Source: an uncultured bacterium
Lineage (GTDB): Bacteria > Bdellovibrionota_B > Oligoflexia > CAYFLR01
DNA: 62,094 nucleotides
Direction of reading: 5' to 3'
Assembly: GCA_964544765.1 (NCBI GenBank)
Contig: CAZJDM010000003.1
Location: forward strand, 1-62,094
The notes below the pieces were generated by a model. It saw nothing but the letters and a program-made list of their open reading frames with translations. It made no database searches and was not told the origin of the DNA. The translations under genes and the position numbers were made by a program. Positions 8,823 through 53,446 of this stretch are shown in pieces. Position 1 is the stretch's first letter. Every line of letters starts with the position of its first letter.

Positions 8823-9041
8823 TTGAAAAAAGTAAATGGGAAAAGTGGACAAGTTATTTTGGAATATATTTTACTTCTATCTTTGATAACTTTTTCTTCT
8901 ATAGCGTTATTAGGCTTTGTCAAAAAAATAATGAAAAATCAGGTGAGCGTATTGGCTTCTAAATTTACCGAAAATAAAGAATTGGGATCCAATGAGGAAA
9001 TTAAAAGTGCTTATGAAGAGCTATTTGGAGGAAATGATTGA
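8823..9041 (+). CDS. Flp/Fap-type (type IVb, class III signal) pilin-like small protein
   Basis: 72 aa with a TTG start 8 nt after GGAG (8811-8814). 'KSG/QVILEY' followed by a hydrophobic stretch (ILLLSLITFSSIALLGF) fits the Flp prepilin G/XXXXEY processing motif. Confidence 0.5.
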   Translation: MKKVNGKSGQVILEYILLLSLITFSSIALLGFVKKIMKNQVSVLASKFTENKELGSNEEIKSAYEELFGGND

Positions 9042-9301
9042 ACAATCAATTTTACTTACGAAGACGTAGGTCTCATTGGCGGAATAAACAAGGTCTGGCA
9101 ATAATAGATATTTGTCTGACCTTGTTTTTCTTGATGAGTATTTTGCAGTATTTAATCCCACTTTCTTTCAAAATATTGGCTAATTCAGTCGCTATGGAAG
9201 TGAATTACCATTTAAATTCGATAGTAAATGGCTTTCAGTCTGAGCATTTGACCCCACTAGAATTTGAAAAACATCTTGGAAATGAGATAAAAAAAAACTA
9301 A
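9038..9301 (+). CDS. Small membrane protein, possibly TadE/pseudopilin-like
   Basis: 87 aa whose start overlaps the previous stop by 4 nt (ATGA coupling). A basic N-terminus is followed by 'KQG/LAIID' plus a hydrophobic helix, a loose variant of the same processing motif. Confidence 0.35.
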   Translation: MNNQFYLRRRRSHWRNKQGLAIIDICLTLFFLMSILQYLIPLSFKILANSVAMEVNYHLNSIVNGFQSEHLTPLEFEKHLGNEIKKN

Positions 9302-9819: not shown

Positions 9820-10080
9820 TTAGGCAACTTTTTGCCTTGCTTCCCAAAGATCATATTCTGCTTGCATTCTTACCCACATTTCAGCAGAAGTATCGAGCAC
9901 TTTTTCAAGGATAATAGCAAAAGATGGAGAGATACCTCGCTTTTCATTAACAATTTCATTAATTTTTCGTGGAGAACAATGGCAAAGGGAGGCAAGTTCC
10001 GTTTGATTAAGGTTCATTTCTTTCATATAAATTTCAGACAAGACTTTACCAGGATGCAAGGGATTTGGATTTTTAATCAT
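9820..10080 (-). CDS. higA: HigA-family antitoxin (XRE-type HTH)
   Basis: 86 aa. 'HPGKVLSEIYMKEMNLNQTELASLCHCSPRKINEIVNEKRGISPSFAIILEKVLDTSAEMWVRMQAEYDLWEA' follows the HigA consensus (HPGE.L...L...T..LA..LGVSR..I..IVNGKR.IT...A..L...FG.S...W...Q..YDL). Confidence 0.85.
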   Translation of the reverse strand: MIKNPNPLHPGKVLSEIYMKEMNLNQTELASLCHCSPRKINEIVNEKRGISPSFAIILEKVLDTSAEMWVRMQAEYDLWEARQKVA

Positions 10081-10082
10081 AA

Positions 10083-10379
10083 TTAACCTCTATGGTAGTT
10101 TTCAATCTTAACCTCAGAGAATTCACCATTTTTGAATTTGAAAGTGATGCACCAAGGCAGTTTGATCGTTACACTCCAATATTTTTTTCGATCTCCTTTT
10201 AGTTTATGAAGTCTAATGTTTGGAGGTTGACCTCTTATTATTAAATCATCAATTGTTTGAGTAGAATGCATTATTGTCAATAGAGCTTTGGTACGAATCC
10301 AAATATCTTTAGGCAGGGTTCTAGAACTATTTTTTTCCCAAATGTCTCTAGCGATTTTATTAGCAAAATTTATAATCAC
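10083..10379 (-). CDS. higB: HigB-family toxin (RelE/ParE superfamily, 'plasmid maintenance system killer')
   Basis: 98 aa, ending 2 nt upstream of higA in the toxin-first order typical of HigBA. 'RLHKLKGDRKKYWSVTIKLPWCITFKFKNGEFSEVKIENYH' matches the HigB C-terminal consensus (L..L.G.R.G.WSIRIN..WRI.F.....V.I.DYH). Confidence 0.85.
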   Translation of the reverse strand: MIINFANKIARDIWEKNSSRTLPKDIWIRTKALLTIMHSTQTIDDLIIRGQPPNIRLHKLKGDRKKYWSVTIKLPWCITFKFKNGEFSEVKIENYHRG

Positions 10380-11539: not shown

Positions 11540-11875
11540 TCAAAGCGAAGACTTAAAAATAATTCGACTGTTTTGGGCGATTTCAAAAGCTATTGATCCA
11601 ATTTGTGGATCCGTTAATTCATGTGGGGTCAAAGCGATAGGTTCTATGTCATTGTCTATGTTTACTTTTAGTCGGTTTAATAATTTTAACGCAATAATAT
11701 AGTCCATTCCTAAAAAATCAGTACTTATGATTGCTAAATCAATATCACTATATTTATGGGATTTACGGTGGTAGTAAGAACCGAATAGCCTGATTTCAAT
11801 ATTATCGAACAGAGAGTCAAGTAATTTACCATATTTGATAGAAACTTCTTCTATTTCAACAATTGTTCGGCCCAT
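11540..11875 (-). CDS. Minimal nucleotidyltransferase (MNT-type antitoxin of HEPN/MNT module)
   Basis: 111 aa. 'RLFGSYYHRKSHKYSDIDLAI' matches the GS(x)n-DxD polymerase-beta-type nucleotidyltransferase motif. It overlaps the upstream HEPN gene by 25 nt. Confidence 0.75.
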   Translation of the reverse strand: MGRTIVEIEEVSIKYGKLLDSLFDNIEIRLFGSYYHRKSHKYSDIDLAIISTDFLGMDYIIALKLLNRLKVNIDNDIEPIALTPHELTDPQIGSIAFEIAQNSRIIFKSSL

Positions 11876-12255
11876 TTCAATAATTCCTCTGTTTTACTTA
11901 TATAGCTATTAAGTGAATCTTTGGTTAAGGATTGAGATAAGGACTCTCTATATGTTGGGTATCTAGCCAGAATATAATAAGGATTTAGCCCTGTAAATAA
12001 TTTATTATACACTTTTAATTCGGTTTTTTTATTAGTTATTAAAGTGGCTAGTTTTGCTAAATCATGTATATATGGAGGTTGATCGTTGTGAATACTGATG
12101 AACAATCCTTTTAAAATTTTTTCATTCGTTTGTTGTAAATTAAAGGCACAATGAAGAAGCTTATTATGTTTAAAAGCTATAATAGCCATATCAAAGTCGC
12201 TAACTGCCAAATCATACCATTTTGAGGTAATTAAATTTTTCTTTTTTTTTGTCAT
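11851..12255 (-). CDS. HEPN domain protein (toxin of HEPN/MNT module)
   Basis: 134 aa and all-helical. 'IHDLAKL' and 'ILARYPTY' resemble conserved HEPN (PF05168-type) motifs. It is paired with the MNT gene. Confidence 0.7.
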   Translation of the reverse strand: MTKKKKNLITSKWYDLAVSDFDMAIIAFKHNKLLHCAFNLQQTNEKILKGLFISIHNDQPPYIHDLAKLATLITNKKTELKVYNKLFTGLNPYYILARYPTYRESLSQSLTKDSLNSYISKTEELLKWAEQLLK

Positions 12256-15546: not shown

Positions 15547-16674
15547 TTAAAATATATACTTATAATAACAAAATCCACCCGGTTGTCGATCTCCATGTTC
15601 ACTACGTCGTATTCCATTTTCTCTTTTTTCCCCTCCCCTAAAATATCCACCAAGGTTGAGGGTGTGATTGGTGGTAGTAATACTAAAAGCTAAGCGGCTG
15701 ACCCAACTTCTATCTTGAAAGTTTAGAATAGCTATGTTGTTGATGTTATAATGACGGGTTAAATAAATAATTAGTTGAGAACCGATGATTCTTTGACCCA
15801 AAGCATTTGTGGAGTACGGAGCTGAACCTCTTTCACTGGCTTCAAAAGCATCAAATTCACTCGGATCATTTTTCCCAAAACCATTAACATATAATTCCAG
15901 TGTCGCTAGTATTGTTGTTGGTACTTGATATCTAATTTGGGAGGCCAGTGAGAAATAGCCTTTACTATTTTTATCTAGAGTTAAAGCAAATTCAGAACTG
16001 ACTCCAAAATATTTTAAACGAGTTGAGATATCTCCGCTGATAATAGTGTCCTTATTATTAACCCCTAAAACGTTCAAATTTAACTGAACTTCATCTACTT
16101 GATGTTTGGCTCTGAACAAAAATTTTGCATTGGTTAATAGTATGAAATGAATTTCTGATGATTGTGCCGCTTGCCATTGATATAAAAAGGCATCAATTGG
16201 TTCTTGTTTATCATGCGATAAAATATCAATTGGTGAAAAGAAGTTGGAGGGAGAAAAAAGAGAAAAAGGACTTAGAGTATAATAAAACCTACCAAGAGTG
16301 TAGGTCATCTGGGAGTCATTGTATTTGAAAGATAATAACTTTACTAATGGTTTAATTTCAGAAGGTTTTTTTAAAAAATATTTTTCGTCTTTAAAAGTAT
16401 GCTTAGTAAGTAGTCCTAATTTAGTATAGTAACCTAATTGCCATATTTGCCCTTTTGATCCTACCAATAAATTGTTTTCGTTATAATTATCTAGATTCTC
16501 GTTGCGTAGGATAAAAAAAGATCCTTCTCCAATAAATTCTCCAGTAAAGAACTTTTTTTCTTCTGGAGAAGTGGAACTATCCGTTGGAGACGAAATGCCA
16601 GCTTGTAATATGTTAAATCCATATCCAGTTGCAAAAAGTGTAAGTATCAGTTTGAATGTTAAATTGATTACCAC
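15547..16674 (-). CDS. Putative outer-membrane beta-barrel protein (unknown family)
   Basis: 375 aa with a GTG start and a signal-like N-terminus. Alternating hydrophobic beta-strand patterns run throughout and the C-terminus is aromatic (YYKYIF). It sits immediately upstream of lptF. Confidence 0.5.
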   Translation of the reverse strand: MVINLTFKLILTLFATGYGFNILQAGISSPTDSSTSPEEKKFFTGEFIGEGSFFILRNENLDNYNENNLLVGSKGQIWQLGYYTKLGLLTKHTFKDEKYFLKKPSEIKPLVKLLSFKYNDSQMTYTLGRFYYTLSPFSLFSPSNFFSPIDILSHDKQEPIDAFLYQWQAAQSSEIHFILLTNAKFLFRAKHQVDEVQLNLNVLGVNNKDTIISGDISTRLKYFGVSSEFALTLDKNSKGYFSLASQIRYQVPTTILATLELYVNGFGKNDPSEFDAFEASERGSAPYSTNALGQRIIGSQLIIYLTRHYNINNIAILNFQDRSWVSRLAFSITTTNHTLNLGGYFRGGEKRENGIRRSEHGDRQPGGFCYYKYIF

Positions 16675-17466: not shown

Positions 17467-19755
17467 ATGAGAGAAATCAAAATGAGAAGATGGGCTTTTT
17501 TAAGCACTTTTATCATCGTATTGTGTGGTTATTATGATTATGTAGGATATGCCCGGTATCCAAATATCCCATTAATGGAAGAACCTGCTGATATAGTTAA
17601 TTCTACAGATGAAGGTGCCAGCTCTGTTGCTTATGACCAAATTCAAGGATGGTTGATACCAAAGGAAAGTTATAAAAGTATAAATTTTCAAAACCAAAAG
17701 ACCTCTTTAGATTTTCATCAACGAACCCTTGAAGGTGTTGAATCTATTGTTCAAAACTTGCACATTTTTCATTTACGAGGACAGTTTTTGGATTTGTTTT
17801 TTTTCAAAATGGCAGAAATCAGTGAAGATAATTTTTTAATTTCGCCGGCTGCAGTTTTTGATGAATATAAAAGTGTTGAGAGTTACTTTTTAAACGAGGT
17901 CCCTAGCCATATAATTGTTGCCAATACTTATGAACACTTGCATTATTTTTTTAGTTACTGGAGATTATTGTCTAATTCATTATTATTGGCAGATATTCAA
18001 GAATTAGAGCCAATAAGGCAAGGAAATACTTTTAAAGTAATTGTCTGTAATGATGGTAAAACAGAAAAAGTTGACCGATGTTTAGATGAGAGTCATCGGA
18101 ATAATGCTGCTTATGATTTTGAAAAAGATGATTTGATTTTCTTTGCTCAGGAGGATTTAAATACCTGTTTGCCTGTTCATACCGGATTAGATCCATCAGT
18201 GATTTTTCATGAAGCTAGTCATTCTTTAATCTATAAGATCACATCATTTAAGAAAGAAACATCTTTCAACTGGTTTGCTATTCATGAAGGATTGGCAGAT
18301 TATATTTCAGCTTCGATGCTGGATTCACCTGAAATTGGAAAAATCTTTTTAGCTGGATGCAGTAATCAAAATCCTAAATTTGTTTCAGATAAAGGTGAAG
18401 GTTTTTATTTGAGAACAGTAGAAAATTCAGTTTCTTTTGATGGAGAAAATAACGTTTTTACTTATATGGATCCCCATGTTCTTGGTTTGGCTTTTGCTTC
18501 GACTTTGTGGGAAATCAGAAGGAAGATTATCGCAGAAGTAAAAGATAACGAAGTAGGAAAATCATTTGCCGATCATATTGTTTTAATGGCGCTAGTTGAA
18601 ATGAAGGATTCCTTAAAACCTTATTTAGAAATGTTTTACCAAGCTTTATTGGATAGTGAAGAGTATTTGTTTCAAGAAAAATTTAGAAATATAATTGTAG
18701 ATGCTTTTGCTCAAAAAGGCTTAGTGGATACATTTGGGGATATTAATCCCAATTTATTAGAAAATCATCCAGCGTTTTATTCGGAAAAGAGGATTACCGA
18801 AACTGATCGAGAAAATGTAAATATAGGAGGATGCAGCATTCAGTCATCGAATTCTTCAATGAATTTTTTGATGTCGTTATTACTGCTGTTGCCTCTATTT
18901 ATTCTCCTTTTAAGAAGAAAGATAATATTAATTCTATCAGTTTGTGTTCTATTTTCTTCTTGTTTATATGAGGAAATAGAAAAAGATTATATTCAAAAAA
19001 AGCCAGAAGGTAATTGGGTAGAGTATGTTATTTTTCCTTTTAATGATCATGGACTATTGAACACTGAAAAAGGGGTATTTTTTCGTTTTTTTAATGCCTA
19101 TCAGAAAAATAATAATAATTACAACTGGCTGGGCTTGAGAATGGGGTTATTTGAACTTTCTTTAGATGATGGAAAGGTTAAGGAAACTGAATGGAAGGAC
19201 AAAGATTCCTATCTTTTATATGATCGAAAACAAAAGATCATTGATAAAAAGGTACGAAAGTTAGATGCGGGACTTGTGACGCAAGATGACCAACAAGAAA
19301 GTATACATCTTGTTTCTGAGGACATTTACAATGTGGGCAATGTCCCTTTAATGCCTATCATTGAGTTATTACTTGAATATTTACCCAAAGCATCGCAAAA
19401 CTATTTGAAATTATTAAACAATATGGGTGTAGATGAGTCTGACATTGTTTTGGGTATTCCTGAGTTAAATTATAAAAGAGTTGTACATCTTTCTGAAGAA
19501 CAATCTATTGAAATGGGTTCCCGCATTTTTCATAAATGCACCAAATTTCTGGCAGTTAAAGATCTAGAACCAGGAGGCTCTATTGATCTTAATTCAGAGG
19601 GTATTAGTTGGATCTATTGCGATGATAATGACGCTATTTTTTCAGTGCTGGAAATTAATGGGTTGGACCAGGTATCAATGATTAAATATGAATCCGTTTC
19701 CGCAGCTTTAGGATTCAAGGTACAGATGTTACTGTGTGTTGGAGATGGAGTTTAA
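17467..19755 (+). CDS. Secreted thermolysin-like (gluzincin HExxH+E) metalloprotease-like protein with internal GGC-TM-RRK signal followed by a lipobox and a ~270-aa C-terminal domain
   Basis: The open frame runs from a TTG at 17389. ATG at 17467 (MREIKMRRWAFLSTFIIVLCG) is the more plausible start. 'FHEASHS' followed 21 residues later by 'HEGLADY' is gluzincin-like. 'GGCSIQSSNSS-MNFLMSLLLLLPLFILLL-RRK' at nt 18826-18921 is immediately followed by 'ILSVCVLFSSC' (Cys codon 18961-18963). Confidence 0.6.
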   Translation: MREIKMRRWAFLSTFIIVLCGYYDYVGYARYPNIPLMEEPADIVNSTDEGASSVAYDQIQGWLIPKESYKSINFQNQKTSLDFHQRTLEGVESIVQNLHIFHLRGQFLDLFFFKMAEISEDNFLISPAAVFDEYKSVESYFLNEVPSHIIVANTYEHLHYFFSYWRLLSNSLLLADIQELEPIRQGNTFKVIVCNDGKTEKVDRCLDESHRNNAAYDFEKDDLIFFAQEDLNTCLPVHTGLDPSVIFHEASHSLIYKITSFKKETSFNWFAIHEGLADYISASMLDSPEIGKIFLAGCSNQNPKFVSDKGEGFYLRTVENSVSFDGENNVFTYMDPHVLGLAFASTLWEIRRKIIAEVKDNEVGKSFADHIVLMALVEMKDSLKPYLEMFYQALLDSEEYLFQEKFRNIIVDAFAQKGLVDTFGDINPNLLENHPAFYSEKRITETDRENVNIGGCSIQSSNSSMNFLMSLLLLLPLFILLLRRKIILILSVCVLFSSCLYEEIEKDYIQKKPEGNWVEYVIFPFNDHGLLNTEKGVFFRFFNAYQKNNNNYNWLGLRMGLFELSLDDGKVKETEWKDKDSYLLYDRKQKIIDKKVRKLDAGLVTQDDQQESIHLVSEDIYNVGNVPLMPIIELLLEYLPKASQNYLKLLNNMGVDESDIVLGIPELNYKRVVHLSEEQSIEMGSRIFHKCTKFLAVKDLEPGGSIDLNSEGISWIYCDDNDAIFSVLEINGLDQVSMIKYESVSAALGFKVQMLLCVGDGV

Positions 19756-20029
19756 AAAATCTAGTAAAATCCTCATTAATGGCCTTTTTCCATTAAATAA
19801 TAGCCTTTTTTGTCTAAATATTGTGTATAAATTTTTGACACCTGCCTTTTCTTTGTCATCTATTTATATATAAGTAGTAACCTGTAATGGGGCCTTTTTC
19901 TAAATAAACTCATAAATTACAATATGATATCTCTGTTTTAGGCTTGTGGTATGAATCTTGCTCAAATACCTAGGTGTGGGAGGATGTCTTCCATTAATAC
20001 GAGTTTAACAAGGGACGGAGATATATTAT

Positions 20030-21820
20030 ATGAAAGAACGATTAAAAGTTTTTATCATCAGTGTGTTACTGATCTTCGCTTCTCTTATATTATTTGAGAA
20101 TGTCAGTTTTGCGGAGGAAGGTAGCCCTGATCAAACAGAAGAAACTACTAATGACGGAGATAATCCCAGCGGTGATGGAGAAACTGCTAATGGTGAAGAA
20201 AATACAAATGGAGAAGATGGGCAACAAGATAATACCGAGGGAGAAGATGGTCAACAAGAAGAAAATCAAGATGGAGATCAGGACGAGGCAGCCTTTTTTA
20301 AAGCTATATTAGACAGAGTGTCTGATTATTGTGGTGAAGATCTTGAAAAGATTGAAGATGTAGATAAGTGTTTTTTGAAGGATATTGAAGAAGAACCGCC
20401 AGAGATTGAACCAATTGCCGCATCTGATGAGGAGAAAGAAGAAGAACCTGAGTCTGAACCAAAAGAAGAAAAACCAGCTAAACCTAAACTTACCACCAAA
20501 AAAGGGGACCCAGCTGAGGATTTAGTTGTTACTCGTTTGAAAGGTGGTGGTTGTGGAGTCATTTCTTCAAATCAAAAAGCTAACTTTAACAACTTAAATT
20601 GGTCTTGGTGGATATTTCTTGTTCCATGTTTAATAGTTTTGATGATTCGTTTCGATTTTTTCAATTTATTGAGAAAGAGACAATTTGTCTTGGTTAGAAA
20701 TAAATTGTTAATTTTTATAGTAATGATTACATGTTTAGGCAAATCAGGATTTGGTTACGACTTTTCTAAGAAATATATCAACAATTTTGGTAGTCGAGGT
20801 TTTGTTGAACGAGCGGTAGTTTTAAAACAGGGATCTATGTATATAAGCACTCAGGGAGATTTTGCCAGAGGGCTTTTAACGGCCGAGACTGAGGATAATA
20901 AAGATTTTAATTTAGTGGATCAGTCAGTTCGTAATAACCTAAATCTTAGTTTTGGAATTACAGACATTATTCAATTGGGTTTCAGTGTACCAGTAACTGC
21001 CTATCAAAAAGCGCGTTATTTAGGATATTCTGATTATGATAATCATTTTGGTGTTTCTGATTTGTTGATGGAACTAAAAATTTTAGTATTATCTTTTGAT
21101 GTTATCAATTGGAGTATATCTTCGGATGTTTCTTATAATAAACCTAAAAAATTCAATTTTTATTCAGGAAATAGTTGGCAGGCAGGTTTTAGGACCGCTT
21201 TAACCTCTAAATTTAAAAAATCTGTTCTTTCTTTTAATTTAGGTTATCGTTATTTGCAAACCGAATATATATACGACATAGCTTTTAACGATTATATTAA
21301 TGCTGGTATTGTCTATTCTTATTATATTTTGGGCAATAGCCTAGAATTTTCGGGTGGTTTTGACGGGCAAATACAGACTTCAGCTTTAAAGAATGAAAAG
21401 AATGCCGCAAAAAATATACCTGTAGAGTTTAATGGTTTTATAACATACCATGTTTCAAAAAGATTAAGGTTTCAAACAGGTGGAGGTTTAGGACTAACCG
21501 ACGCATATGGCGCTCCCGCTTGGAGAGTTTTTGCCGGTGCCAGTTACAAGATTAACCTTCTTAAGTTAGGTAAAAGTAAAAGGCGATATTCTCGTAAAAA
21601 GAAGAATTATTTTTCTTTTTCAAAATCCAAAAAGAGGAAGAAAAAGAAAAGGAGAAAAAAAAGGAAAAGAAGATCAAGGAAGAAAAATAAAGTAGTTCAA
21701 GTGGATTTTGATGATAGTCATAGCAGTGATTGGAAGAAATCAAGTTATAGAAGAGATTTAAAAAGAAAAATTCAAAAACAATATGAAAATAGTGATATTA
21801 ATTTTGATGGATTGGATTAA
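20030..21820 (+). CDS. Secreted protein: acidic low-complexity N-region, internal GGGCG-TM-RKR signal, beta-barrel-like domain, polybasic tail
   Basis: 596 aa with a signal peptide (LLIFASLILFENVSFA) and a D/E/G/N/Q-rich region. 'LKGGGCGV...WWIFLVPCLIVLMI...LLRKRQ' spans nt 20543-20690. An alternating-strand region ends 'WRVFAGASYKINL', followed by 'KSKRRYSRKKK...KKRKKKKRRKKRKRRSRKKNK'. Confidence 0.6.
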   Translation: MKERLKVFIISVLLIFASLILFENVSFAEEGSPDQTEETTNDGDNPSGDGETANGEENTNGEDGQQDNTEGEDGQQEENQDGDQDEAAFFKAILDRVSDYCGEDLEKIEDVDKCFLKDIEEEPPEIEPIAASDEEKEEEPESEPKEEKPAKPKLTTKKGDPAEDLVVTRLKGGGCGVISSNQKANFNNLNWSWWIFLVPCLIVLMIRFDFFNLLRKRQFVLVRNKLLIFIVMITCLGKSGFGYDFSKKYINNFGSRGFVERAVVLKQGSMYISTQGDFARGLLTAETEDNKDFNLVDQSVRNNLNLSFGITDIIQLGFSVPVTAYQKARYLGYSDYDNHFGVSDLLMELKILVLSFDVINWSISSDVSYNKPKKFNFYSGNSWQAGFRTALTSKFKKSVLSFNLGYRYLQTEYIYDIAFNDYINAGIVYSYYILGNSLEFSGGFDGQIQTSALKNEKNAAKNIPVEFNGFITYHVSKRLRFQTGGGLGLTDAYGAPAWRVFAGASYKINLLKLGKSKRRYSRKKKNYFSFSKSKKRKKKKRRKKRKRRSRKKNKVVQVDFDDSHSSDWKKSSYRRDLKRKIQKQYENSDINFDGLD

Positions 21821-34418: not shown

Positions 34419-37400
34419 CTAAAAACCTCCATCAGGATGCCAACCATACCAAGTATTTCTGGGATCCGATGTATCAAGTTTATATTGGTCCAAAAAGTCT
34501 TGAAGAGGAGTATCTTGTAAAATTTTATTAGGTGATTTTAATATTTCTACACTTGAGGTATATGTATCCAATTGTGGTGTGAGTTGTTGTCCGTAACTAT
34601 AATTTTCGTAATGAATTCTCTGTGGTCTTCCCTGAAGGGTTCTAAAACCATCTACAACATCAACTACCTGTTCTTCTTCTTTTAGTTCAGAGGACCAACT
34701 ATTATCTCCGAAATTCATGTCTTTCTGATAGTATATATGGTGAAGTGATTCGTGAAGTAATGTTTCACCCAGAGTTATGGGTTCTACAGCCAAACCTAAG
34801 CTTTGCCCTTGTTCATCAAAAAGTTCACGACTTTTATCTAAATAACCTCCTGGTGTGCCGTTTATGATGCTTGCTGGTGATAAACTAATCATGCTTGGAT
34901 CTCTTAGGTCATCAGGCATAAACACTCGATCCCCCATGTCCAATAGATCTGGAATTGCTGTTATTTTTATACTTGGCCCTTCACGACCACTTTCAAAGTG
35001 CTCTGAGATAAGAGCAATAGCTACATCAGGGTAATCACGCGCTAAATCGCGAATGCCATCTTTTATTCCCTCTACAGTATATTTAGCTTGACTTCCTGAA
35101 TATTCACCCAACTCTCCAAACTCATTATCCCAAGCCTGCTCAATTTGAGGTAAAGCTTTATCGTTGGGGTCATCAAGGTTGATAAAAACATCTTCATCGA
35201 TTTCATATACTTGCATAAGAAGATCCGCTATATTTCCCCTATGAATTTCTGGGACGGGACGTGGAGGTGGTACTTTAATTAAATCGTCAGGAGGTGGAGG
35301 TGGAGGACCTTCTTCACCGACTCGCCATGGTGTGGTAACTGGAATAGGAGGAGGTGGTCTAGGCTCCCCTTTTTTCCAGGGAGCTATGTCGGGTAATCCT
35401 GGAGGAGGGGAAGGTTTTTTCTTTATAAAGATTTCTCCTATTTTCCCTTGAGAACTGATACCACCTCGGGTTCTAATACCCCTAATCGATTCAGGGTCAT
35501 TAAGCATGCATGCGTCGGGACCAGCCACTAATCCAAAACCACATGGATCATTATTTAAGAAAGACTCTTCCATATCATTTGAAATTAAATTGAATAATGT
35601 AATTTTATTCTCTGAGGTGAGATCACTTATAAATTCTGGAGTATATGATCTGGTACTTCCAAACCTAATTAAGGTAACTTCATTTTTATCAATCATGGGA
35701 AAGATTGATTCTTCATTGTATAATTTTGTTAAAGGAGACTGGTCAAGGGCCAATTTGGTAAAAGGATGAGCATATATATTATCAACATTATTAGTCTTTT
35801 TATATTGCTCAATATACGTTTTTATTTTGTCTATATCTGGGTTTTGATCTCCTTGGACAACAGAATCCCGATATCTGGTAGTTTCTTTTTCTAAGGCATA
35901 TCTAAAATCAATATCTCTAAGTTGAATAAAGATAGATTCGGCCCATTTTGTTCCCTTTTTAGAGTCTTGATATTGATCTTGAATATATTGCTCAATATCT
36001 ACCTCATCTGCTTGATCGTCTTTAAGGTAAACTTTGTCAAAATTTTCAGTAAAAACCAGTTCAGAAGTATTTGCTAAATTGAAGATTAATGCTTTGGCCA
36101 CATATCGTTTTTCATTTACCAGTATCATATTATAAGGAACTGTTGCTGATTGATAAGTGAAATTAAATACAGGGTCATTGGCTGGAGTGCTTAGTACAAT
36201 CGGTATGTATCTTGCTTTGCCGTTTTTATCCAAAAATTGTTTTGAAGCGGTAGTAGGAGAAATTTCTATATAATTTTGAACTACCGGAAAACTTTCAATG
36301 TCCTTATTCAAATCATAAAAAAAGGCATAGTGGGTAGAAATATTATTTTCGGCAAATTCAAGAATCAATGAGAGCTCCCTATTATCAAAAGCATTATCTA
36401 TAATAACATTAATAACATCTCTTTTTGAATTCAAAGGTTCAGAGCGGTAAATTTGTTTTTTTTCTTTGTCTAAAATACTTAATTGGTAATAAATCATGTT
36501 GGTAATACTATCCCATTCAATAATTGTCTGGGAACTGTCCATTGTCAATTTAAGACTAGGTTTATTAATATCAAAATCGGTTAGTTGAATAGTATCCTTT
36601 TTAATAGTAGCGCTGATACAAGAAGACTCGTTTCCGGATAAGTCGCTATATTTTACAGATACATTGTTTGATGGTTTTAGTTGTTTAGGAAAGATCCAAG
36701 TTATAGAAGGATTGTATAAGTACCATTCGCCATTTATGGCACAGTCTTCAGAATTAGAAATATATACATATGATGGTGAACCTTCAGCAGCGAGAGATAA
36801 TCGTACTGATCTGGAATCAGTGTAACCAAAATTGTTATTTACGCTTATGGTGGGATTAGAAGGAGCTTTAATATCCCTAAATACATATGCAGCTCCACAG
36901 TTAATTTTATCGTCAGCACTGTTGACATAAGGAGCGCTGACAATCAAATCTTTACCGGTAATAGCCATATCCCAGCCAAAATAATCAGATTTGTTCCCCA
37001 CCTCTCCGTTAATTTTTGAAGCTTGCTTCCAAGAATATCCATCGTGCTGGAACATGTAGGTTGTGCCTGTAGTATTCTTTGAGTATTCAAAAAAGGAACC
37101 TACTAGGATAATTTGTCCGGAAATGGCTACCCTTTGACCAAAAAAATCACCGGTCATGGGGGTGTCTGATATCAGTTTTTGGCTCTCTAACCATCCTTGA
37201 GATGTATGTTGAAAGATGTATGCCGCACCGGATAACTCACCATAATCATCGTCTCCAAAAGCTCCAACAACAGCATGATCGTGGGAAATACCTACACTGA
37301 ATCCAAAATAATCATTTTCAGTCTTATCATAAGCTGTTAAAACAGATTCCAATTTAAAATTTTCTTTTTCTTCTGACCAAGAATAAATATAGGATGATCC

Positions 37401-38276
37401 TTGGTAATTATAGTCACCAGGTGATCCAACAATTATCCTTCCGTTTCTGATATCCACGCTCCAGCCAAAATTAGCGCTGGTTGTTTTATTAGGTACAAGG
37501 CCAAAATGTCGTGACCAATTTACTTTATTCTCATTAATGATGGGGTGAAAAACATATACTTTGCCAATATTAGATTCTATATCATTCCTGTGATAAGGCT
37601 CGCCAACTATTACTACACCTTGATCTATAGCCACGCTGTATCCGAAATAGCCTTTTAACTGTGGTTCGGGTGAGGTGAACTTCTCAATTTGTTCCCAATT
37701 ATTGATTTCTTTATTGTATTTAAAAATATATACAGCGCCTACATCCTGCAGTAAGTTGAGTTTCAGATCATGAGCATAGGCTCCTACTACAATTAAATTG
37801 CCTGTTGGATCGATATCAACGCTGAAACCAAAGTGATCATGACGGACTCCATCATTGGCAGTTAATTGCTGTTGAAAAATCCACTCATTCCCCTCTCCCT
37901 CTCGTTGATATATGTAGACTGCTCCTAATCTACCTGACGCTAAGTCTCCTCCCACCACCATTCTATTAGCGGATACTGCTACGCTTTTTCCTAGATTATA
38001 ATGATTTTTATCACAATCGGTTTCATATTTTAATTTAGCAAAGTTTCCCAATCCTGAAGCTACTAAGTTGGCAGTTGGAGCTTGGGTGGTTTTTTCCACT
38101 AAAGGAGAACAAACTAAATCAGGGTCGATTTGTAGCAAATATTCTTCTAAGTCTTCTAAATTACCACTTTTTTTACAATCGTTATCTAAATATGACTGTA
38201 TTTCACCCTCAAATACGTTACAATTTGAGATTAATATAGTACAACATAAGATTATTACTACATATAATCGCTTCAT
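34419..38276 (-). CDS. Giant lipoprotein: FG-GAP/integrin-alpha-like beta-propeller, middle beta-rich region, polyproline tract, C-terminal HExxH region
   Basis: 1285 aa with a lipobox (ILISNC|N). There are at least 7 FG-GAP-like blades (DHFGFSVDI, GYFGYSVAI, ANFGWSVDI, DYFGFSVGI, DFFGQRVAI, DYFGWDMAI). The tract 'PSPPPGLPD...PRPPPPIP...GPPPPPPDD...PPPRPVPE' and the motif 'LLHESLHH' follow. Confidence 0.7.
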   Translation of the reverse strand: MKRLYVVIILCCTILISNCNVFEGEIQSYLDNDCKKSGNLEDLEEYLLQIDPDLVCSPLVEKTTQAPTANLVASGLGNFAKLKYETDCDKNHYNLGKSVAVSANRMVVGGDLASGRLGAVYIYQREGEGNEWIFQQQLTANDGVRHDHFGFSVDIDPTGNLIVVGAYAHDLKLNLLQDVGAVYIFKYNKEINNWEQIEKFTSPEPQLKGYFGYSVAIDQGVVIVGEPYHRNDIESNIGKVYVFHPIINENKVNWSRHFGLVPNKTTSANFGWSVDIRNGRIIVGSPGDYNYQGSSYIYSWSEEKENFKLESVLTAYDKTENDYFGFSVGISHDHAVVGAFGDDDYGELSGAAYIFQHTSQGWLESQKLISDTPMTGDFFGQRVAISGQIILVGSFFEYSKNTTGTTYMFQHDGYSWKQASKINGEVGNKSDYFGWDMAITGKDLIVSAPYVNSADDKINCGAAYVFRDIKAPSNPTISVNNNFGYTDSRSVRLSLAAEGSPSYVYISNSEDCAINGEWYLYNPSITWIFPKQLKPSNNVSVKYSDLSGNESSCISATIKKDTIQLTDFDINKPSLKLTMDSSQTIIEWDSITNMIYYQLSILDKEKKQIYRSEPLNSKRDVINVIIDNAFDNRELSLILEFAENNISTHYAFFYDLNKDIESFPVVQNYIEISPTTASKQFLDKNGKARYIPIVLSTPANDPVFNFTYQSATVPYNMILVNEKRYVAKALIFNLANTSELVFTENFDKVYLKDDQADEVDIEQYIQDQYQDSKKGTKWAESIFIQLRDIDFRYALEKETTRYRDSVVQGDQNPDIDKIKTYIEQYKKTNNVDNIYAHPFTKLALDQSPLTKLYNEESIFPMIDKNEVTLIRFGSTRSYTPEFISDLTSENKITLFNLISNDMEESFLNNDPCGFGLVAGPDACMLNDPESIRGIRTRGGISSQGKIGEIFIKKKPSPPPGLPDIAPWKKGEPRPPPPIPVTTPWRVGEEGPPPPPPDDLIKVPPPRPVPEIHRGNIADLLMQVYEIDEDVFINLDDPNDKALPQIEQAWDNEFGELGEYSGSQAKYTVEGIKDGIRDLARDYPDVAIALISEHFESGREGPSIKITAIPDLLDMGDRVFMPDDLRDPSMISLSPASIINGTPGGYLDKSRELFDEQGQSLGLAVEPITLGETLLHESLHHIYYQKDMNFGDNSWSSELKEEEQVVDVVDGFRTLQGRPQRIHYENYSYGQQLTPQLDTYTSSVEILKSPNKILQDTPLQDFLDQYKLDTSDPRNTWYGWHPDGGF

Positions 38277-51706: not shown

Positions 51707-53443
51707 GTGAAAAAAATGCCGAAAAATATATTAGCTTTCGGGTTAATAGAAGGTTTGGGACTTAATGATATGATTTTTAAATATAAAAATGATAAAAAAA
51801 TTAAATCAGGCGAAATAGAGCAAAGGCCTAGAATTATAAAAGGGTCTTTTCATAAAATGCTTAGTTTCGTTTGGTTTTTAGTATTTATCGGTAGTATATC
51901 CTGTGATCGTAGCCTGCCAGTGTCTTATGTCCGACAATCTTTCTTAGTAAATGAGCAAAGTGTTGATTCTCCAGAGGATCTTAAGAGAGATTTAGCTAAG
52001 TATAGGTTTGAAATGTTGACTAGGGATACCAATAGTCGTCATGCAAGAATTTCTGGTTTGGTAGTAAATTATTTGGCGATTGCCAATGATGTTCAGGTTC
52101 CTTTTATCGAGTGGGACCAAAATGATTATGTCGAGTTTGTTCGAGTTATGCGTTGTTTTCAATTTCCATCTACCGGACCTGCGGCTACGACTGACGGAGA
52201 CATCCTATCAGGAGCAGAATATAGTGGTGGAACTGTTAGTGGTTGGATGAAAAATGCTGGAACAAGTGATTTTCAAGCGCCGACTGAGCAGTTAGGCATG
52301 TCCTCATATGAAGATATTTATAGACAATCCTGGGATGCTGGTTTTCGAGATTGTTATGAAGTTGGTAATTCTTATATGGGAGATAGTGTTCAAGATCCTT
52401 CTGCTGAAACAGGTGATTATACTTATGTCGTTCAGGGGTGTTTTGAGAACCAAGGTTGTGGGCCTTTAGCTACATTTTCTAACTTCAATTATGTTCGCAA
52501 TTTACCTCTAGGAACAAAAGAGTTGTTTCAACAACGTGATCAAATTTTTGCTGAGTTAAAAGGCTTAGCCAGACAAATAGTTGAGTATGATGCCATTGCT
52601 GAACAGGAATATGCACGGTGTGATCAATTGAGAGAAGATGCTTTTGATGAGGATTTTGATCGAAGAATGACGGGGATATTTGTTGAGATGGGTGTGAACC
52701 TAACTTTAGGATTGATTACGGCCATGAGTATTGGAGATGGTAAAAAGAATGATGGAACCACTAAAACTACTGGAGCTACTAGTAATCAAGATAATGGGAT
52801 TATGGACAGAATTCAAAATCGATTGACAAACCGTGCTATTGGTCATTTTGCCGGTTATGGTGGAGATTGTGGTGCGCCGGCAGACAATGAAAGCTTTGAA
52901 GCAGAACAGGCTCGTATGGACTGTTATATTGGTAATTTAACCAGAGCAAGTAGTCTTGTCAAAGACTATGGACTAAAAAAAATTGACGGCATCGATCTGG
53001 GTTTTGGCTTATTAGGACTAGGAATTGATTCTTTGCCGATGAATAATTCAAGACTGGGAAGTGTGGGAATTGGCGGTATAGGAATTGCTATTCAAAGTTT
53101 TATGATTGACGAAGAAACTGCCAAAAATTTAAGAGAAAGCTGCCCTCTATATGATCAAGCTACCGCCAATAGAAATAGAAGTATTCAATTAGCTGAGATT
53201 AAAGGCTATGACTTAAAACAAAAAATAAATGAGATTAATAGATTGGGTGAAGAAGGGTTTATAGAAGAATCTACTCAATTAGAAGTAATGCAATTTAAGG
53301 CTAATAAGGAAATATGCGAAGAACAAGGTATGCGGTACGGGTATATACAAGGAATGCAAAAGGGCTGTATTCCTATAAATTCAAGCAATATGAATAATGC
53401 TGGTGATAGCACAGATGGAAGTTCCATGAGTAACGAGGTGTAA
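51707..53443 (+). CDS. Lipoprotein, paralog family A (Cys-patterned head, coiled coil, two Gly-rich hydrophobic segments); gene 1 of 5
   Basis: 578-aa ORF starting at a GTG preceded by AAGGAAA. Alternative starts are 51770 and 51857. The lipobox is 'FLVFIGSISC|D'. 'DYVEFVRVMRC', 'FRDCYEVG...GDYTYVVQGCFENQGC', 'ARCDQL' and the Gly-rich 'IFVEMGVNLTLGLITAMSIG' and 'LGFGLLGLGID...GSVGIGGIGIAIQSF' parallel ORFs 56119 and 57407. Confidence 0.6.
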   Translation: MKKMPKNILAFGLIEGLGLNDMIFKYKNDKKIKSGEIEQRPRIIKGSFHKMLSFVWFLVFIGSISCDRSLPVSYVRQSFLVNEQSVDSPEDLKRDLAKYRFEMLTRDTNSRHARISGLVVNYLAIANDVQVPFIEWDQNDYVEFVRVMRCFQFPSTGPAATTDGDILSGAEYSGGTVSGWMKNAGTSDFQAPTEQLGMSSYEDIYRQSWDAGFRDCYEVGNSYMGDSVQDPSAETGDYTYVVQGCFENQGCGPLATFSNFNYVRNLPLGTKELFQQRDQIFAELKGLARQIVEYDAIAEQEYARCDQLREDAFDEDFDRRMTGIFVEMGVNLTLGLITAMSIGDGKKNDGTTKTTGATSNQDNGIMDRIQNRLTNRAIGHFAGYGGDCGAPADNESFEAEQARMDCYIGNLTRASSLVKDYGLKKIDGIDLGFGLLGLGIDSLPMNNSRLGSVGIGGIGIAIQSFMIDEETAKNLRESCPLYDQATANRNRSIQLAEIKGYDLKQKINEINRLGEEGFIEESTQLEVMQFKANKEICEEQGMRYGYIQGMQKGCIPINSSNMNNAGDSTDGSSMSNEV

Positions 53444-53446
53444 GCA

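What the first reader, a model, noticed from the sequence alone, without database searches (positions are those of the whole stretch)
17467..21820. MYXO-CTERM-like tripartite sorting signals (GGC, TM helix, basic cluster) located in the middle of two neighbouring large secreted proteins
C-terminal sorting domains of the MYXO-CTERM / GlyGly-CTERM type consist of a Gly-Gly(-Cys) signature, a short Ser-rich spacer, one hydrophobic helix and an Arg/Lys cluster at the extreme C-terminus. Here the same tripartite element occurs internally in two adjacent genes.

- ORF 17467-19755 has 'GGCSIQSSNSS-MNFLMSLLLLLPLFILLL-RRK' (nt 18826-18921). It follows a thermolysin-like HExxH+E domain and is directly followed by a lipobox-like 'ILSVCVLFSSC' and about 270 more residues.
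- ORF 20030-21820 has 'GGGCGVISSN...WWIFLVPCLIVLMI...LLRKRQ' (nt 20543-20690). It follows an acidic domain and is followed by about 390 residues of beta-barrel-like sequence.

Possible explanations:
- Gene fusions through loss of a stop codon.
- Polyproteins cleaved at the sorting signal into a surface-anchored N-terminal product and a separately targeted C-terminal product.
- A two-domain topology straddling the inner membrane.

Seeing this architecture twice in adjacent genes argues against accident.
Basis: partly seen in the sequence, partly recalled or inferred. Interest (0 to 1): 0.65.

Follow-up and report, generated by a model that had tools for sequence, protein, structure and literature searches.

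The report
Sorting tags trapped inside fused genes
Two neighbouring genes of an uncultured marine bacterium each join a surface-anchored protein to the next exported protein, so a normally terminal sorting tag sits mid-protein; one fusion is old, common and already noted in myxobacteria, the other is recent and private to this lineage.

Summary
Both ORFs carry an internal Gly-Gly-Cys motif, then a hydrophobic helix, then a basic cluster. A second hydrophobic segment follows directly and has the form of a signal peptide.

**ORF1 (17467-19755)** is a lineage-specific in-frame fusion of an M36-like metalloprotease and the lipoprotein gene downstream of it. In the only two related lineages found, these are separate genes, and in one the tag is truly C-terminal. 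It is not an assembly error: contigs from six sequencing runs and two ENA scaffolds have an identical junction.

**ORF2 (20030-21820)** is an old, conserved fusion. A small acidic domain with the Cys tag is joined to a signal peptide and a roughly 12-stranded outer-membrane barrel of the TraB / FapF / COG4313 type. About 31% of the 149 barrel-family representatives have the same internal tag-plus-signal-peptide junction. This architecture was noted once before, for M. xanthus MXAN_5598 (mBio 2025).

**Most likely mechanism (inferred, not shown):** the junction forms an inner-membrane hairpin. It is cut on one side by a myxosortase-type protease and on the other by signal peptidase (LspA for ORF1, SPase I for ORF2), giving two products.

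**Caveats:** the window's tags score below every curated sorting-domain threshold, and no sorting enzyme lies in the 62 kb window. New variant of a known kind; moderate interest.

The parts
17467..19755 (+). ORF1: a 762-aa fusion protein with signal peptide, M36-like metalloprotease, internal Cys tag, lipoprotein signal and lipoprotein domain.
   Evidence: The identical ORF is found in two ENA scaffolds.
17467..17553 (+). ORF1 N-terminal signal peptide (MREIKMRRWAFLSTFIIVLCGYYDYVGYA), read by eye.
   Evidence: translation. No signal-peptide predictor was available.
18181..18723 (+). M36-like gluzincin protease domain. HEASH lies at nt 18208-18222 and HEGLADY starts at nt 18283.
   Evidence: Pfam PF02128, E=5.9e-5, 22.9 bits against a 23.3 cut-off. 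Both motifs are invariant in the orthologue.
18826..18921 (+). ORF1 internal Cys-type sorting tag: GGC (Cys at 18832-18834), Ser-rich spacer, Pro-containing helix (18859-18912) and RRK (18913-18921).
   Evidence: The orthologue P0002 carries the same tag at its true C terminus.
18922..18963 (+). Former lipoprotein signal peptide h-region and lipobox (IILILSVCVLFSS-C). The Cys aligns with the canonical lipobox Cys (LTGC, VSGC) of the separate orthologous genes.
   Evidence: There is no ATG, GTG or TTG between RRK and the Cys.
18961..19752 (+). Lipoprotein domain of unknown fold. It is 41-46% identical to the separate 286-aa and 283-aa genes of relatives.
   Evidence: Single-sequence AF2 failed with pLDDT 35.
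20030..21820 (+). ORF2: a 596-aa TraA/TraB-like fusion protein.
20030..20113 (+). ORF2 N-terminal signal peptide (…NVSFA|EE).
   Evidence: AF2 predicts a helix at residues 2-24.
20114..20542 (+). Acidic, mostly disordered passenger domain. It has two confident helices and a conserved Cys pair (C-x15-C).
20543..20704 (+). ORF2 internal Cys tag: GGGC (Cys at 20552-20554), spacer, Pro-containing helix (20600-20647) and a basic stretch (20648-20704) that also serves as the n-region of the next signal peptide.
   Evidence: Conserved in P0004 and P0005. AF2 predicts helices at 192-214 and 219-234.
20705..20755 (+). Internal signal-peptide h- and c-regions (LLIFIVMITCLG-KSGFG), with a predicted SPase I site after G242.
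   Evidence: This segment aligns with the N-terminal signal peptides of stand-alone barrel homologues. The orthologue has a canonical AQA|F site.
20756..21559 (+). Outer-membrane beta-barrel of about 12 strands, TraB / FapF / COG4313 type.
   Evidence: AF2 pLDDT is above 90 over residues 250-510. Foldseek finds FapF at E=3e-11 (TMt 0.63-0.72) and 4rl8. The family matches the TraB model in 33 of 37 members.
21560..21817 (+). Lys/Arg-rich tail ending in the conserved YE[NS]xDxNFDGLD. It sits where most family members have an OmpA domain.

Best explanation
Both ORFs are head-to-tail fusions of two Sec-exported proteins that were once adjacent genes.

**Origin.** The upstream partner ended in a Cys-type tripartite sorting tag: a Gly-Gly-Cys signature, a helix and a basic tail. 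This is the class that CPBP-family 'myxosortases' process. The downstream partner began with a signal peptide. Losing the stop, the spacer and the start welded the tag's cytoplasmic basic tail to the signal peptide's basic n-region.

**Junction.** The result is a helical hairpin in the inner membrane, running out-to-in through the tag helix and in-to-out through the signal peptide. Both flanking domains end up in the periplasm, and both processing sites sit on the correct face of the membrane.

**ORF2.** This fusion is ancient. It is a TraA/TraB-like unit made of a small acidic passenger, a tag, a signal peptide and a 12-stranded outer-membrane barrel.

**ORF1.** This fusion is recent and private to this lineage. 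It joins an M36-like protease carrying the tag to a partner lipoprotein.

**Inferred processing.**
1. The Cys is lipidated and a myxosortase-like protease cuts after it, releasing a lipid-anchored N-terminal product for surface display.
2. Signal peptidase I (ORF2, after GFG) or Lgt/LspA (ORF1, at LFSS-C) releases the C-terminal product.
3. That product goes to the outer membrane, through BAM for the barrel or Lol for the lipoprotein.
4. A hairpin peptide of 42-67 aa is left behind in the inner membrane.

**Shown:** the anatomy, the fusion history, the barrel fold and the family distribution. **Inferred:** every cleavage and every destination.
For: **ORF1 history.**
- The only homologue of the N-terminal part, P0002 (469 aa, 44% identity), ends ...GSGCSITNS...LLFLMLPLLIPFFRRRLGGY*. 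Four nucleotides later a 286-aa lipoprotein gene starts, MKSLIFCLISAVLLTGC|LYEE.
- A third lineage (L038/L039) has stops in all frames and an SD+TTG start before its 283-aa lipoprotein.
- The window's lipobox Cys and the whole downstream domain align at 41-46% identity with no frame damage.

**Not an artefact.** The junction is identical in two ENA scaffolds and in contigs from six runs in two studies.

**ORF2.**
- The internal tag plus signal peptide is conserved in P0004 and P0005 at 37-41% identity.
- Of 149 family representatives, 103 are stand-alone and 46 carry the barrel deep inside. Of those 46, 36 (plus 2 by eye) have a Gly...Cys tag with a double hydrophobic junction, and 8 have a CFIATAA box.
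- All 37 examined show two adjacent hydrophobic segments. Under a strict rule, 27 of 37 show the pattern Cys 4-17 aa before TM1, a basic loop, H2 and then an AxA-like site.
- 23 of 33 junction segments hit TIGR03901. For example, P0102 scores 31.2 bits against a cut-off of 20.
- The signal peptides of stand-alone homologues align with ORF2's second hydrophobic segment.

**Structure and family.**
- AF2 gives a confident barrel and the hairpin helices.
- Foldseek finds FapF and COG4313.
- The family matches TraB in 33 of 37 members and OmpA in 30 of 37.

**Literature.**
- MXAN_5598 is described with an internal MYXO-CTERM followed by a barrel and OmpA. Processing of its N-terminal part was proposed, and precedents for functional internal tags were cited.
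- MXAN_5598 was detected in the OMV/membrane proteome.
Against: - No cleavage product has been observed for any of these proteins. Even for MXAN_5598, processing is only proposed.
- The window's tags are below every curated HMM cut-off, and the ORF2 tag hits nothing.
- The tag helix contains Pro in five of the six tags of this lineage seen here. MYXO-CTERM is described as lacking Pro in its helix.
- No CPBP or rhomboid protease is encoded in the 62 kb window, and the rest of the genome could not be searched.
- ORF1's lipobox (LFSS-C) is less canonical than those of its orthologues. LspA and Lgt acting on an internal signal is assumed, not known.
- ORF2's basic cluster is separated from the helix by RFDFFNLL, which is atypical.
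Confidence: 0.62

Rival explanations
1. The proteins are not cut. The hairpin is a permanent inner-membrane anchor that holds two periplasmic domains side by side, which is the reader's 'two-domain topology'.
For: The hairpin topology itself is compatible with this reading. No sortase was found in the window. The tags are sub-threshold.
Against: ORF2's C-terminal domain is a confident outer-membrane barrel. Its stand-alone homologues are released by an N-terminal signal peptide at the same position, and a barrel tethered to the inner membrane could not insert in the outer membrane. The invariant Cys and the AxA-like sites are conserved across the family, which a plain anchor would not require.
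Confidence: 0.13
2. The ORF1 fusion is a recent neutral or mildly harmful lesion. Loss of the stop and start means the lipoprotein part, and perhaps the protease, is now mis-sorted or non-functional and on its way to decay.
For: The fusion is seen in one of three lineages only. The lipobox is degraded from L-T-G-C / V-S-G-C to F-S-S-C. No canonical start codon is left.
Against: The 264-aa downstream domain shows no frameshift or stop, and 81 of its residues are invariant across the three lineages (83 invariant columns in all). The same allele is present in samples from two studies. The fused topology keeps both processing sites correctly oriented. Recency cannot be ruled out.
Confidence: 0.15
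3. The downstream domains are made mainly by internal translation initiation, so the long ORFs are only a read-through by-product.
For: The orthologue P0005 has an in-frame Met inside the second hydrophobic segment. The ORF1 junction has ATA and ATT codons after a purine-rich stretch.
Against: ORF1 has no ATG, GTG or TTG and no GGAG-type Shine-Dalgarno between RRK and the lipobox. Without a stop codon the upstream ribosomes still make the fusion. The architecture is conserved in 46 family representatives.
Confidence: 0.07
4. Sequencing or assembly error merged two genes.
For: Orthologues of ORF1 are split. The NCBI MAG of the third lineage has an N-gap exactly at this junction.
Against: Contigs spanning the junction from six runs, plus two ENA scaffolds, are identical with no indels. 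ORF2's fused state is shared by divergent orthologues.
Confidence: 0.02
5. The tags are GlyGly-CTERM signals for a rhombosortase rather than Cys-type signals for a myxosortase.
For: A Gly-Gly precedes the Cys, followed by a Ser-rich spacer. There is a weak GlyGly-CTERM hit at E=1.9.
Against: The Cys is invariant in all 33 aligned tags. The best HMM hits are the Cys-type families JDVT, MYXO, Synerg and CGP. Homologous positions in the family are bona fide MYXO-CTERM.
Confidence: 0.03

Closest known systems
M. xanthus MXAN_5598 (internal MYXO-CTERM; Wall lab, mBio 2025, PMC11980579)
   Same: The order of parts matches ORF2: signal peptide, passenger, internal Cys tag, then an outer-membrane beta-barrel. 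That paper interprets it as a TraA+TraB-like gene fusion whose N-terminal part is processed and surface anchored. The barrel family found here is TraB-like in 33 of 37 members.
   Different: ORF2 has no OmpA domain and carries a Lys/Arg tail instead. Its passenger is a 145-aa acidic segment rather than a large adhesin. Its tag is sub-threshold and contains Pro. It comes from a 33% GC marine lineage of unknown phylum. The paper calls such cases rare, whereas here 46 of 149 barrel representatives are fused. A direct comparison with the MXAN_5598 sequence was not possible.
TraA / TraB outer-membrane exchange pair of Myxococcus
   Same: A MYXO-CTERM surface protein is encoded next to (overlapping) a barrel partner. 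ORF2's barrel weakly matches the TraB model over model positions 65-290 (E=0.022).
   Different: In Myxococcus these are two genes, not one. ORF2 scores 12.8 bits against a cut-off of 700, so it is not TraB. No PA14 or Cys-repeat TraA domain is present, and nothing here shows a role in membrane exchange.
Haloferax volcanii ArtA substrate with a non-terminal tripartite structure (Abdul Halim 2017) and internal LPXTG (Navarre & Schneewind 1994)
   Same: These are experimental precedents that a 'C-terminal' sorting tag still works when sequence follows it. They are cited.
   Different: They involve different tag classes and enzymes (archaeosortase, sortase). No downstream signal peptide or second exported domain is described. 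The papers themselves were not readable here.
Myxosortase-dependent M36 family metallopeptidase (NCBIfam NF038112)
   Same: An M36-type protease carrying a Cys-type C-terminal tag, like the N-terminal part of ORF1 and its orthologue P0002.
   Different: NF038112 is a model of about 1600 positions with a cut-off of 1500 bits. ORF1 did not match it at E<=1. ORF1's protease part is about 450 aa and is fused to a lipoprotein.
FapF amyloid transporter and COG4313 channel (PDB 5o65, 4rl8; Pfam PF13557)
   Same: Best structural matches of the ORF2 barrel are these 12-stranded barrels. PF13557 hits 16 of 37 fused family members.
   Different: Sequence identity is 12-15%. ORF2 itself has no Pfam hit. 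A transport function is not shown.

Membership tests
MYXO-CTERM sorting domain (TIGR03901) | HMM score at or above the curated cut-off of 20 bits. | tested here: not met
   The ORF1 tag scores 13.7-14.1 bits. The ORF2 tag has no hit at E<=10. The P0005 tag scores 16 bits. A high-GC family member, P0102, scores 31.2 bits.
MYXO-CTERM sorting domain (TIGR03901) | Signature motif with an invariant Cys, followed by a TM helix and then an Arg-rich cluster. | tested here: met
   Cys is the only invariant column in 33 aligned tags. ORF2's basic cluster is displaced by 8 residues.
MYXO-CTERM sorting domain (TIGR03901) | TM helix without Pro or charged residues (Haft 2023). | tested here: not met
   Pro is present in the helix in ORF1, ORF2, P0002, P0004 and P0005. 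The defining criterion is quoted.
MYXO-CTERM sorting domain (TIGR03901) | Located at the extreme C terminus. | tested here: not met
   In the window the tag is internal, with 309 and 424 codons to the stop. It is terminal in the orthologue P0002.
MYXO-CTERM sorting domain (TIGR03901) | A cognate CPBP-family myxosortase (MrtX) in the same genome. | not testable with these tools
   No PF02517 or rhomboid hit among the window's ORFs.
JDVT-CTERM (NF033191) | HMM score of at least 27 bits, a DP motif about nine residues after the Cys, and an adjacent MrtJ gene. | tested here: not met
   ORF1 scores 21.9 bits. No DP motif is present (the sequence there is SNSS). There is no CPBP gene nearby.
GlyGly-CTERM (TIGR03501) | HMM score of at least 15.5 bits. 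| tested here: not met
   ORF1 scores 9.4 bits (E=1.9). ORF2 has no hit.
Internal-tag TraA/TraB-like fusion (MXAN_5598 type) | The order: N-terminal signal peptide, passenger, internal Cys tag, second signal-like segment, TraB-type outer-membrane barrel. | tested here: met
Internal-tag TraA/TraB-like fusion (MXAN_5598 type) | A C-terminal OmpA peptidoglycan-binding domain. | tested here: not met
   ORF2 has no OmpA hit, whereas 30 of 37 family members do.
TraB (NF033763) | HMM score of at least 700 bits. | tested here: not met
   12.8 bits, E=0.022, over the barrel part only.
Peptidase M36 (PF02128) | Gathering score of 23.3 bits, plus HExxH and a downstream Glu ligand. | tested here: inconclusive
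   22.9 bits, E=5.9e-5. HEASH and HEGLADY are invariant in the orthologue. There is no PDB sequence match.
Bacterial lipoprotein (lipobox, Lgt/LspA substrate), C-terminal part of ORF1 | An N-terminal signal peptide ending in [LVI][ASTVI][GAS]C. | tested here: inconclusive
   Orthologues have canonical LTGC and VSGC at the N terminus. The window has LFSS-C at the aligned position, but it is internal.

The most novel reading that the evidence does not exclude
The tag-hairpin-signal-peptide junction may be a selected polyprotein device rather than a tolerated accident. One precursor would deliver a lipid-anchored passenger and, in 1:1 ratio, its own FapF-like 12-stranded barrel. The barrel would then act as the dedicated outer-membrane translocon or dock for that passenger. 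This would be an autotransporter-like route with the order of parts reversed and an inner-membrane hairpin intermediate, independent of the type II secretion system. ORF1 would show that the same junction can form anew with a lipoprotein partner.
Probability: 0.1. Interest if true: 0.8.

Novelty: new variant of a known kind. Interest (0 to 1): 0.4.

Why it matters
**What is new here.**
- Internal MYXO-CTERM tags had been mentioned for one M. xanthus protein and called rare. In this sampling, roughly a third of TraB-type barrel representatives carry one, always followed by a signal peptide.
- A divergent, Pro-containing form of the tag exists in a low-GC marine lineage.
- ORF1 is a natural before-and-after pair: split in two related lineages, fused in this one.

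**General rule it suggests.** A gene ending in a tail-in sorting tag can fuse to any downstream exported-protein gene at no topological cost, because the basic cluster serves both signals.

**Practical uses.**
- Annotation pipelines could recognise these junctions instead of reporting odd two-TM proteins.
- Groups working on myxosortase get simple substrates to test whether the enzyme cuts internal tags, and whether Lgt/LspA or SPase I acts on an internal signal.

None of this overturns current models.

Tried and rejected
- **ORF2 homologue search:** It was replaced by an exhaustive search with residues 165-510.
- **Taxon:** a genome-collection scan with MutL gave only hits of about 33% identity to Acidobacteriota, Babeliales and one Bacteriovoracia MAG, with no synteny beyond mutL-miaA.
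- **More relatives:** two JGI metagenome scans, one with the lipoprotein alignment and one with the protease alignment, found nothing. The last protein search found only the two known lipoprotein orthologues.
- **Lipoprotein fold:** The single-sequence model was useless, with pLDDT 35, so no fold search was run.
- **Protease:** a profile search against PDB sequences found no match.
- **Expression:** no RNA run holds the locus.
- **Non-coding RNA:** no Rfam family or tRNA is present in the window.
- **Sortase in the window:** Pfam scans of all other ORFs of at least 100 aa found no CPBP or rhomboid protease.
- **Rejected readings:** assembly error; GlyGly-CTERM with rhombosortase; stop-codon reassignment, which is not needed because the ORFs are open in table 11 and their neighbours translate normally.
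- **Unreadable source:** the Abdul Halim 2017 paper is not held, so it is cited only through the mBio reference list.

Full report
**1. The observation**

ORF1 was called from the ATG at 17467 as a 762-aa protein in two ENA assemblies. Its junction reads ...NVNIGGCSIQSSNSS-MNFLMSLLLLLPLFILLL-RRK-IILILSVCVLFSSC-LYEE... The GGC is at nt 18826-18834, RRK at 18913-18921, and the second Cys at 18961-18963.

ORF2 (20030-21820, 596 aa) reads ...RLKGGGCGVISSNQKANFNNLN-WSWWIFLVPCLIVLMI-RFDFFNLLRKRQFVLVRNK-LLIFIVMITCLG-KSGFG|YDFSK...

The pattern is specific:
- A six-frame scan for G[GSA]C, then a hydrophobic 13-mer within 35 residues, then three or more R/K in four, finds only these two sites in the 62,094-nt window.
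- The same scan finds none in 484,900 nt of 33 unrelated loci fetched for another purpose. It recovers the tags in the window's relatives.

**2. ORF1 is a lineage-specific fusion of two genes, and it is real DNA**

A search of 5.8 billion proteins with ORF1 found one homologue, P0002 (469 aa, 44% identity), covering only the N-terminal 59%. P0002 ends ...DLGSGCSITNSVSQPSGANKLLFLMLPLLIPFFRRRLGGY*. This is the same tag, at a true C terminus.

On its contig (L001/L002) the gene order is SSB(-), the 469-aa gene, a 286-aa gene, a 605-aa gene, MutL, MiaA. This matches the window, except that four nucleotides after the stop of P0002 a separate gene begins: MKSLIFCLISAVLLTGC|LYEESSKEY, a textbook lipoprotein signal with the lipobox LTGC.

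A third lineage is represented by ENA contig L038 and NCBI GCA_964343805.1 contig CAYFLR010000070.1 (L039). Its protease (495 aa as called) carries ...KIEGCSINAKRDGLSNGLFLWVFLGSVLF. Stop codons then follow in all three frames, then AAGGAG and a TTG start for a 283-aa lipoprotein with the lipobox VSGC. That MAG has a 10-N scaffold gap inside the tag helix, so its tail is unread.

The three lipoprotein sequences align over their whole length at 41-46% identity, with 83 invariant columns. The window's Cys at 18961 lies on the lipobox Cys of the other two. The window therefore lacks the tail, the stop, the spacer and the start codon. The junction is about 28 nt shorter than in L001. No ATG, GTG or TTG and no GGAG-type Shine-Dalgarno lies between RRK and the Cys.

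The fusion is not an assembly artefact:
- Two ENA scaffolds from different samples encode the identical 762-aa protein.
- Logan contigs spanning the junction from six runs in two marine studies are identical, with no indels.

**3. ORF2's internal tag is old, conserved and belongs to a large family**

The ORF2 orthologues in the two related lineages (P0005, 605 aa; P0004, 609 aa) keep the same internal element. It reads GLKGGGCGTITNA...ALFLGLPLVGLLL-RRRKR-NTLQLMNLTVLFVLLLGVSVMPFTAQA|FDFSK in P0005 and RLRGGGCGVIKSH...LSLLLILPLILVGIL... in P0004.

An exhaustive HMMER search with ORF2 residues 165-510 against 1.84 billion cluster representatives gave 156 proteins at E<=1e-3. I classified the 149 listed non-self proteins by a local phmmer run:

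| Class | Count |
|---|---|
| Barrel within the first ~130 residues (stand-alone) | 103 |
| Barrel deep inside proteins of 500-2700 aa | 46 |
| ...of these, Gly...Cys motif plus two adjacent hydrophobic segments just before the barrel | 36 (plus 2 by eye) |
| ...of these, GGGCFIATAAFGS-type box in that place | 8 |

Typical junctions:
- ...GASGGGCSAAGTSTEGGLVLLLGLALLALGFGRRRRRAVLVGAASAVALVGLGQGVARAQ|SNT... (P0102)
- ...GGSCAWGAKAGGDANAAPLLLLLSLLLAIALFRRRRVATGTGSALALAIVLSLGAGDASAAG... (P0148)

In 27 of 37 examined proteins a strict rule finds a Cys 4-17 residues before TM1, a basic loop, a second hydrophobic segment and then an AxA-like site. The other ten have the two segments too close together for the rule to separate.

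Scanning 33 junction segments against NCBIfam, 23 hit MYXO-CTERM (TIGR03901) with a best E-value of 7e-8. P0102 scores 31.2 bits, above the 20-bit cut-off. The position homologous to ORF2's tag is therefore occupied by bona fide MYXO-CTERM domains in relatives.

Stand-alone homologues begin with ordinary signal peptides, for example MKILIFILLLTIPGTAQA|LNSEQFRPN. The HMMER alignments run from ORF2's second hydrophobic segment onto these signal peptides. That segment is a former N-terminal signal peptide.

**4. What the parts are**

*ORF2 barrel.* An AlphaFold2 model of ORF2, using the 37-sequence family alignment, has pLDDT above 90 for residues about 250-510. These form about 12 beta-strands. 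The model also has two helices, at 192-214 and 219-234, that make the hairpin.

Foldseek against the PDB puts the FapF polypeptide transporter first (5o65/5o67/5o68; E down to 3e-11, target TM-score 0.63-0.72). The COG4313 channel 4rl8 comes next.

Across 37 fused family members:
- Pfam finds OmpA in 30 and Phenol_MetA_deg (PF13557) in 16. Adhesin-type passengers are common: TSP3, DUF4215, DUF11, Ig-like, cadherin and lectin domains.
- NCBIfam's TraB model hits 33, with a best E-value of 4e-86.

ORF2 itself has only a weak TraB hit (E=0.022). It has no OmpA domain. Its passenger is a short acidic region with two confident helices and a conserved Cys pair. After the barrel comes an 86-residue Lys/Arg tail ending in the conserved ...YE[NS]xDxNFDGLD.

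*ORF1 N-terminal part.* It is M36-like. Pfam PF02128 gives E=5.9e-5 and 22.9 bits against a 23.3-bit cut-off. HEASH and HEGLADY are invariant in the orthologue. A known NCBIfam family, NF038112, is named 'myxosortase-dependent M36 family metallopeptidase', though ORF1 does not match it.

*ORF1 lipoprotein part.* It has no family hit and no usable model.

**5. Are the tags sorting signals?**

By curated thresholds they are not.

| Tag | Best hits |
|---|---|
| ORF1 | JDVT-CTERM 21.9 bits (cut-off 27); MYXO-CTERM 13.7-14.1 (cut-off 20); GlyGly-CTERM 9.4 (E=1.9) |
| ORF2 | none |
| P0002 (terminal tag) | none |
| P0005 | MYXO-CTERM 16 bits; Synerg-CTERM 14; CGP-CTERM 13.9 |

Three points still favour a sorting role:
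- Nine other TM segments from the window hit no sorting model at all.
- Every family hit belongs to the Cys-containing class that Haft assigns to CPBP-type myxosortases. He also notes that tag and enzyme co-evolve into lineage-specific forms that need custom models.
- Cys is the only invariant column in the 33-tag alignment.

This lineage's form differs from MYXO-CTERM. It has a single Cys in the motif GC[SG][IVT] and a Pro in the helix: LPL in four tags, VPC in ORF2, and unread in L039. MYXO-CTERM is described as lacking Pro there, and JDVT-CTERM as having a DP motif that is absent here. I therefore treat the window's elements as a divergent, lineage-specific member of the Cys-type class, not as MYXO-CTERM proper.

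No CPBP or rhomboid protease is encoded in the window. The rest of the genome could not be examined.

**6. Mechanism**

*Shown.* Each ORF has an N-terminal signal peptide, then a domain, a Cys tag, a helix, a basic cluster, a signal-peptide-like segment with a conserved cleavage motif, and a second domain that in relatives is an independently exported protein.

*Inferred from standard Sec topology rules.* The tag helix acts as a stop-transfer sequence, with the basic cluster left in the cytoplasm. The next segment re-initiates translocation. Both domains are then periplasmic, and both cleavage sites sit at the outer face of the inner membrane. The single basic cluster serves as the tag's tail and as the signal peptide's n-region, which is why the fusion costs nothing topologically.

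*Inferred by analogy with the published MYXO-CTERM model.* In that model the Cys is lipidated, MrtX cuts distal to it, and the product is exported to the surface. By analogy the N-terminal products here become lipid-anchored surface proteins. The C-terminal products would be released by SPase I (ORF2, after GFG; AQA in P0005) or by Lgt/LspA (ORF1), then go to the outer membrane. A hairpin peptide of 42 aa (ORF1) or 67 aa (ORF2) would be left behind.

The Wall laboratory proposed exactly this for MXAN_5598. [quoted passage not shown] They cited experimental precedents for functional internal LPXTG and PGF-type tags. MXAN_5598 is listed among OMV/membrane proteins in a proteome study. No cleavage has been demonstrated for any member.

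**7. Rivals**

- *Permanent hairpin anchor.* This is hard to reconcile with an outer-membrane barrel and with the conserved Cys and AxA sites.
- *Recent lesion in ORF1.* The ORF1 fusion may be on the way to decay. Its lipobox is weaker (LFSS-C) and it occurs in one lineage only. Against this, the downstream domain is intact and the allele is found across samples.
- *Internal initiation.* It lacks a start codon and a Shine-Dalgarno sequence in ORF1.
- *Assembly error.* Excluded.
- *GlyGly-CTERM with rhombosortase.* Not supported by the HMM results or by the invariant Cys.

**8. Novelty and verdict**

ORF2 is a new, reduced member of a kind already noted in the literature. The survey here suggests that kind is far commoner than 'rare cases': 46 of 149 representatives.

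ORF1 is a new variant, joining the tag to a lipoprotein signal instead of a barrel's signal peptide. Its split orthologues document the event.

The two fusions are adjacent, but they are not one event. Both upstream genes carried the tag and both downstream genes encode exported proteins, so both were predisposed to tolerate fusion.

The organism remains unidentified. It is a 33% GC marine bacterium with an outer membrane (LptF/G and outer-membrane barrels are present), seen in only three lineages in public data. Interest is moderate.

Noticed in passing
window 21560-21817: ORF2 ends in an 86-residue Lys/Arg-rich tail (runs such as KKRKKKKRRKKRKRRSRKK). It is followed by a terminal motif, YE[NS]xDxNFDGLD, conserved in all three orthologues. 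The tail sits where 30 of 37 family members have an OmpA peptidoglycan-binding domain. The same precursor carries a very acidic N-terminal domain.
   Followed up: partly
proteins P0011, P0021, P0022, P0023, P0038, P0075, P0084 and one more of the 8 counted (not in the window): A second class of barrel fusions replaces the short Cys tag with a ~100-residue box, GGGCFIATAAFGSYxxxHVxxLRxFRDxxLL... This is followed by a helix, RRR, a signal peptide and a barrel that ends the protein. It may be a different Cys-containing sorting or anchoring module.
   Followed up: no
window 15547-16674 (-): A 375-aa protein with no Pfam hit, a signal-like N terminus and an aromatic C-terminal end (...CYYKYIF). It lies between LptF and SSB in all three lineages. 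It looks like an outer-membrane protein that is syntenic with the tagged genes.
   Followed up: no
window 9820-10379 (-): A small gene pair that reads like a HigB-type toxin (98 aa) and a HigA-type helix-turn-helix antitoxin (86 aa). This was judged by eye only.
   Followed up: no
window 11540-12255 (-): An overlapping HEPN (134 aa) and minimal nucleotidyltransferase (111 aa) pair, the usual HEPN/MNT toxin-antitoxin arrangement (Pfam).
   Followed up: partly
window 8823-9301 (+): Two small ORFs (72 and 87 aa) with prepilin-like N termini (KSG|QVILEY..., NKQG|LAIID...). They lie in a stretch that otherwise has no ORF of 100 aa or more. They may be pseudopilin or Flp-like genes.
   Followed up: no
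window 51707-58624 (+): Five consecutive ORFs (578, 165, 725, 439 and 405 aa) with no Pfam hit. Most have lipoprotein-like N termini. The segment has higher GC (0.36-0.38) and a strong positive GC skew.
   Followed up: partly
window 34419-38276 (-): A 1285-aa predicted lipoprotein made of FG-GAP repeats (Pfam E=4e-67), likely a large surface protein. It has no Cys-type C-terminal tag.
   Followed up: partly
window 18933-19116, run X4: A 185-nt contig about 86% identical to the window starts just after the ORF1 junction. This shows that a sister strain or species is present in the same sample. Whether its junction is fused or split is unknown.
   Followed up: partly
L039 9879-9950 (NCBI GCA_964343805.1, CAYFLR010000070.1): The deposited MAG of the third lineage has a 10-N scaffold gap exactly inside the protease's tag helix. 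As a result the called 495-aa product has a spurious tail (XXXXFGFIKGAKFE).
   Followed up: yes
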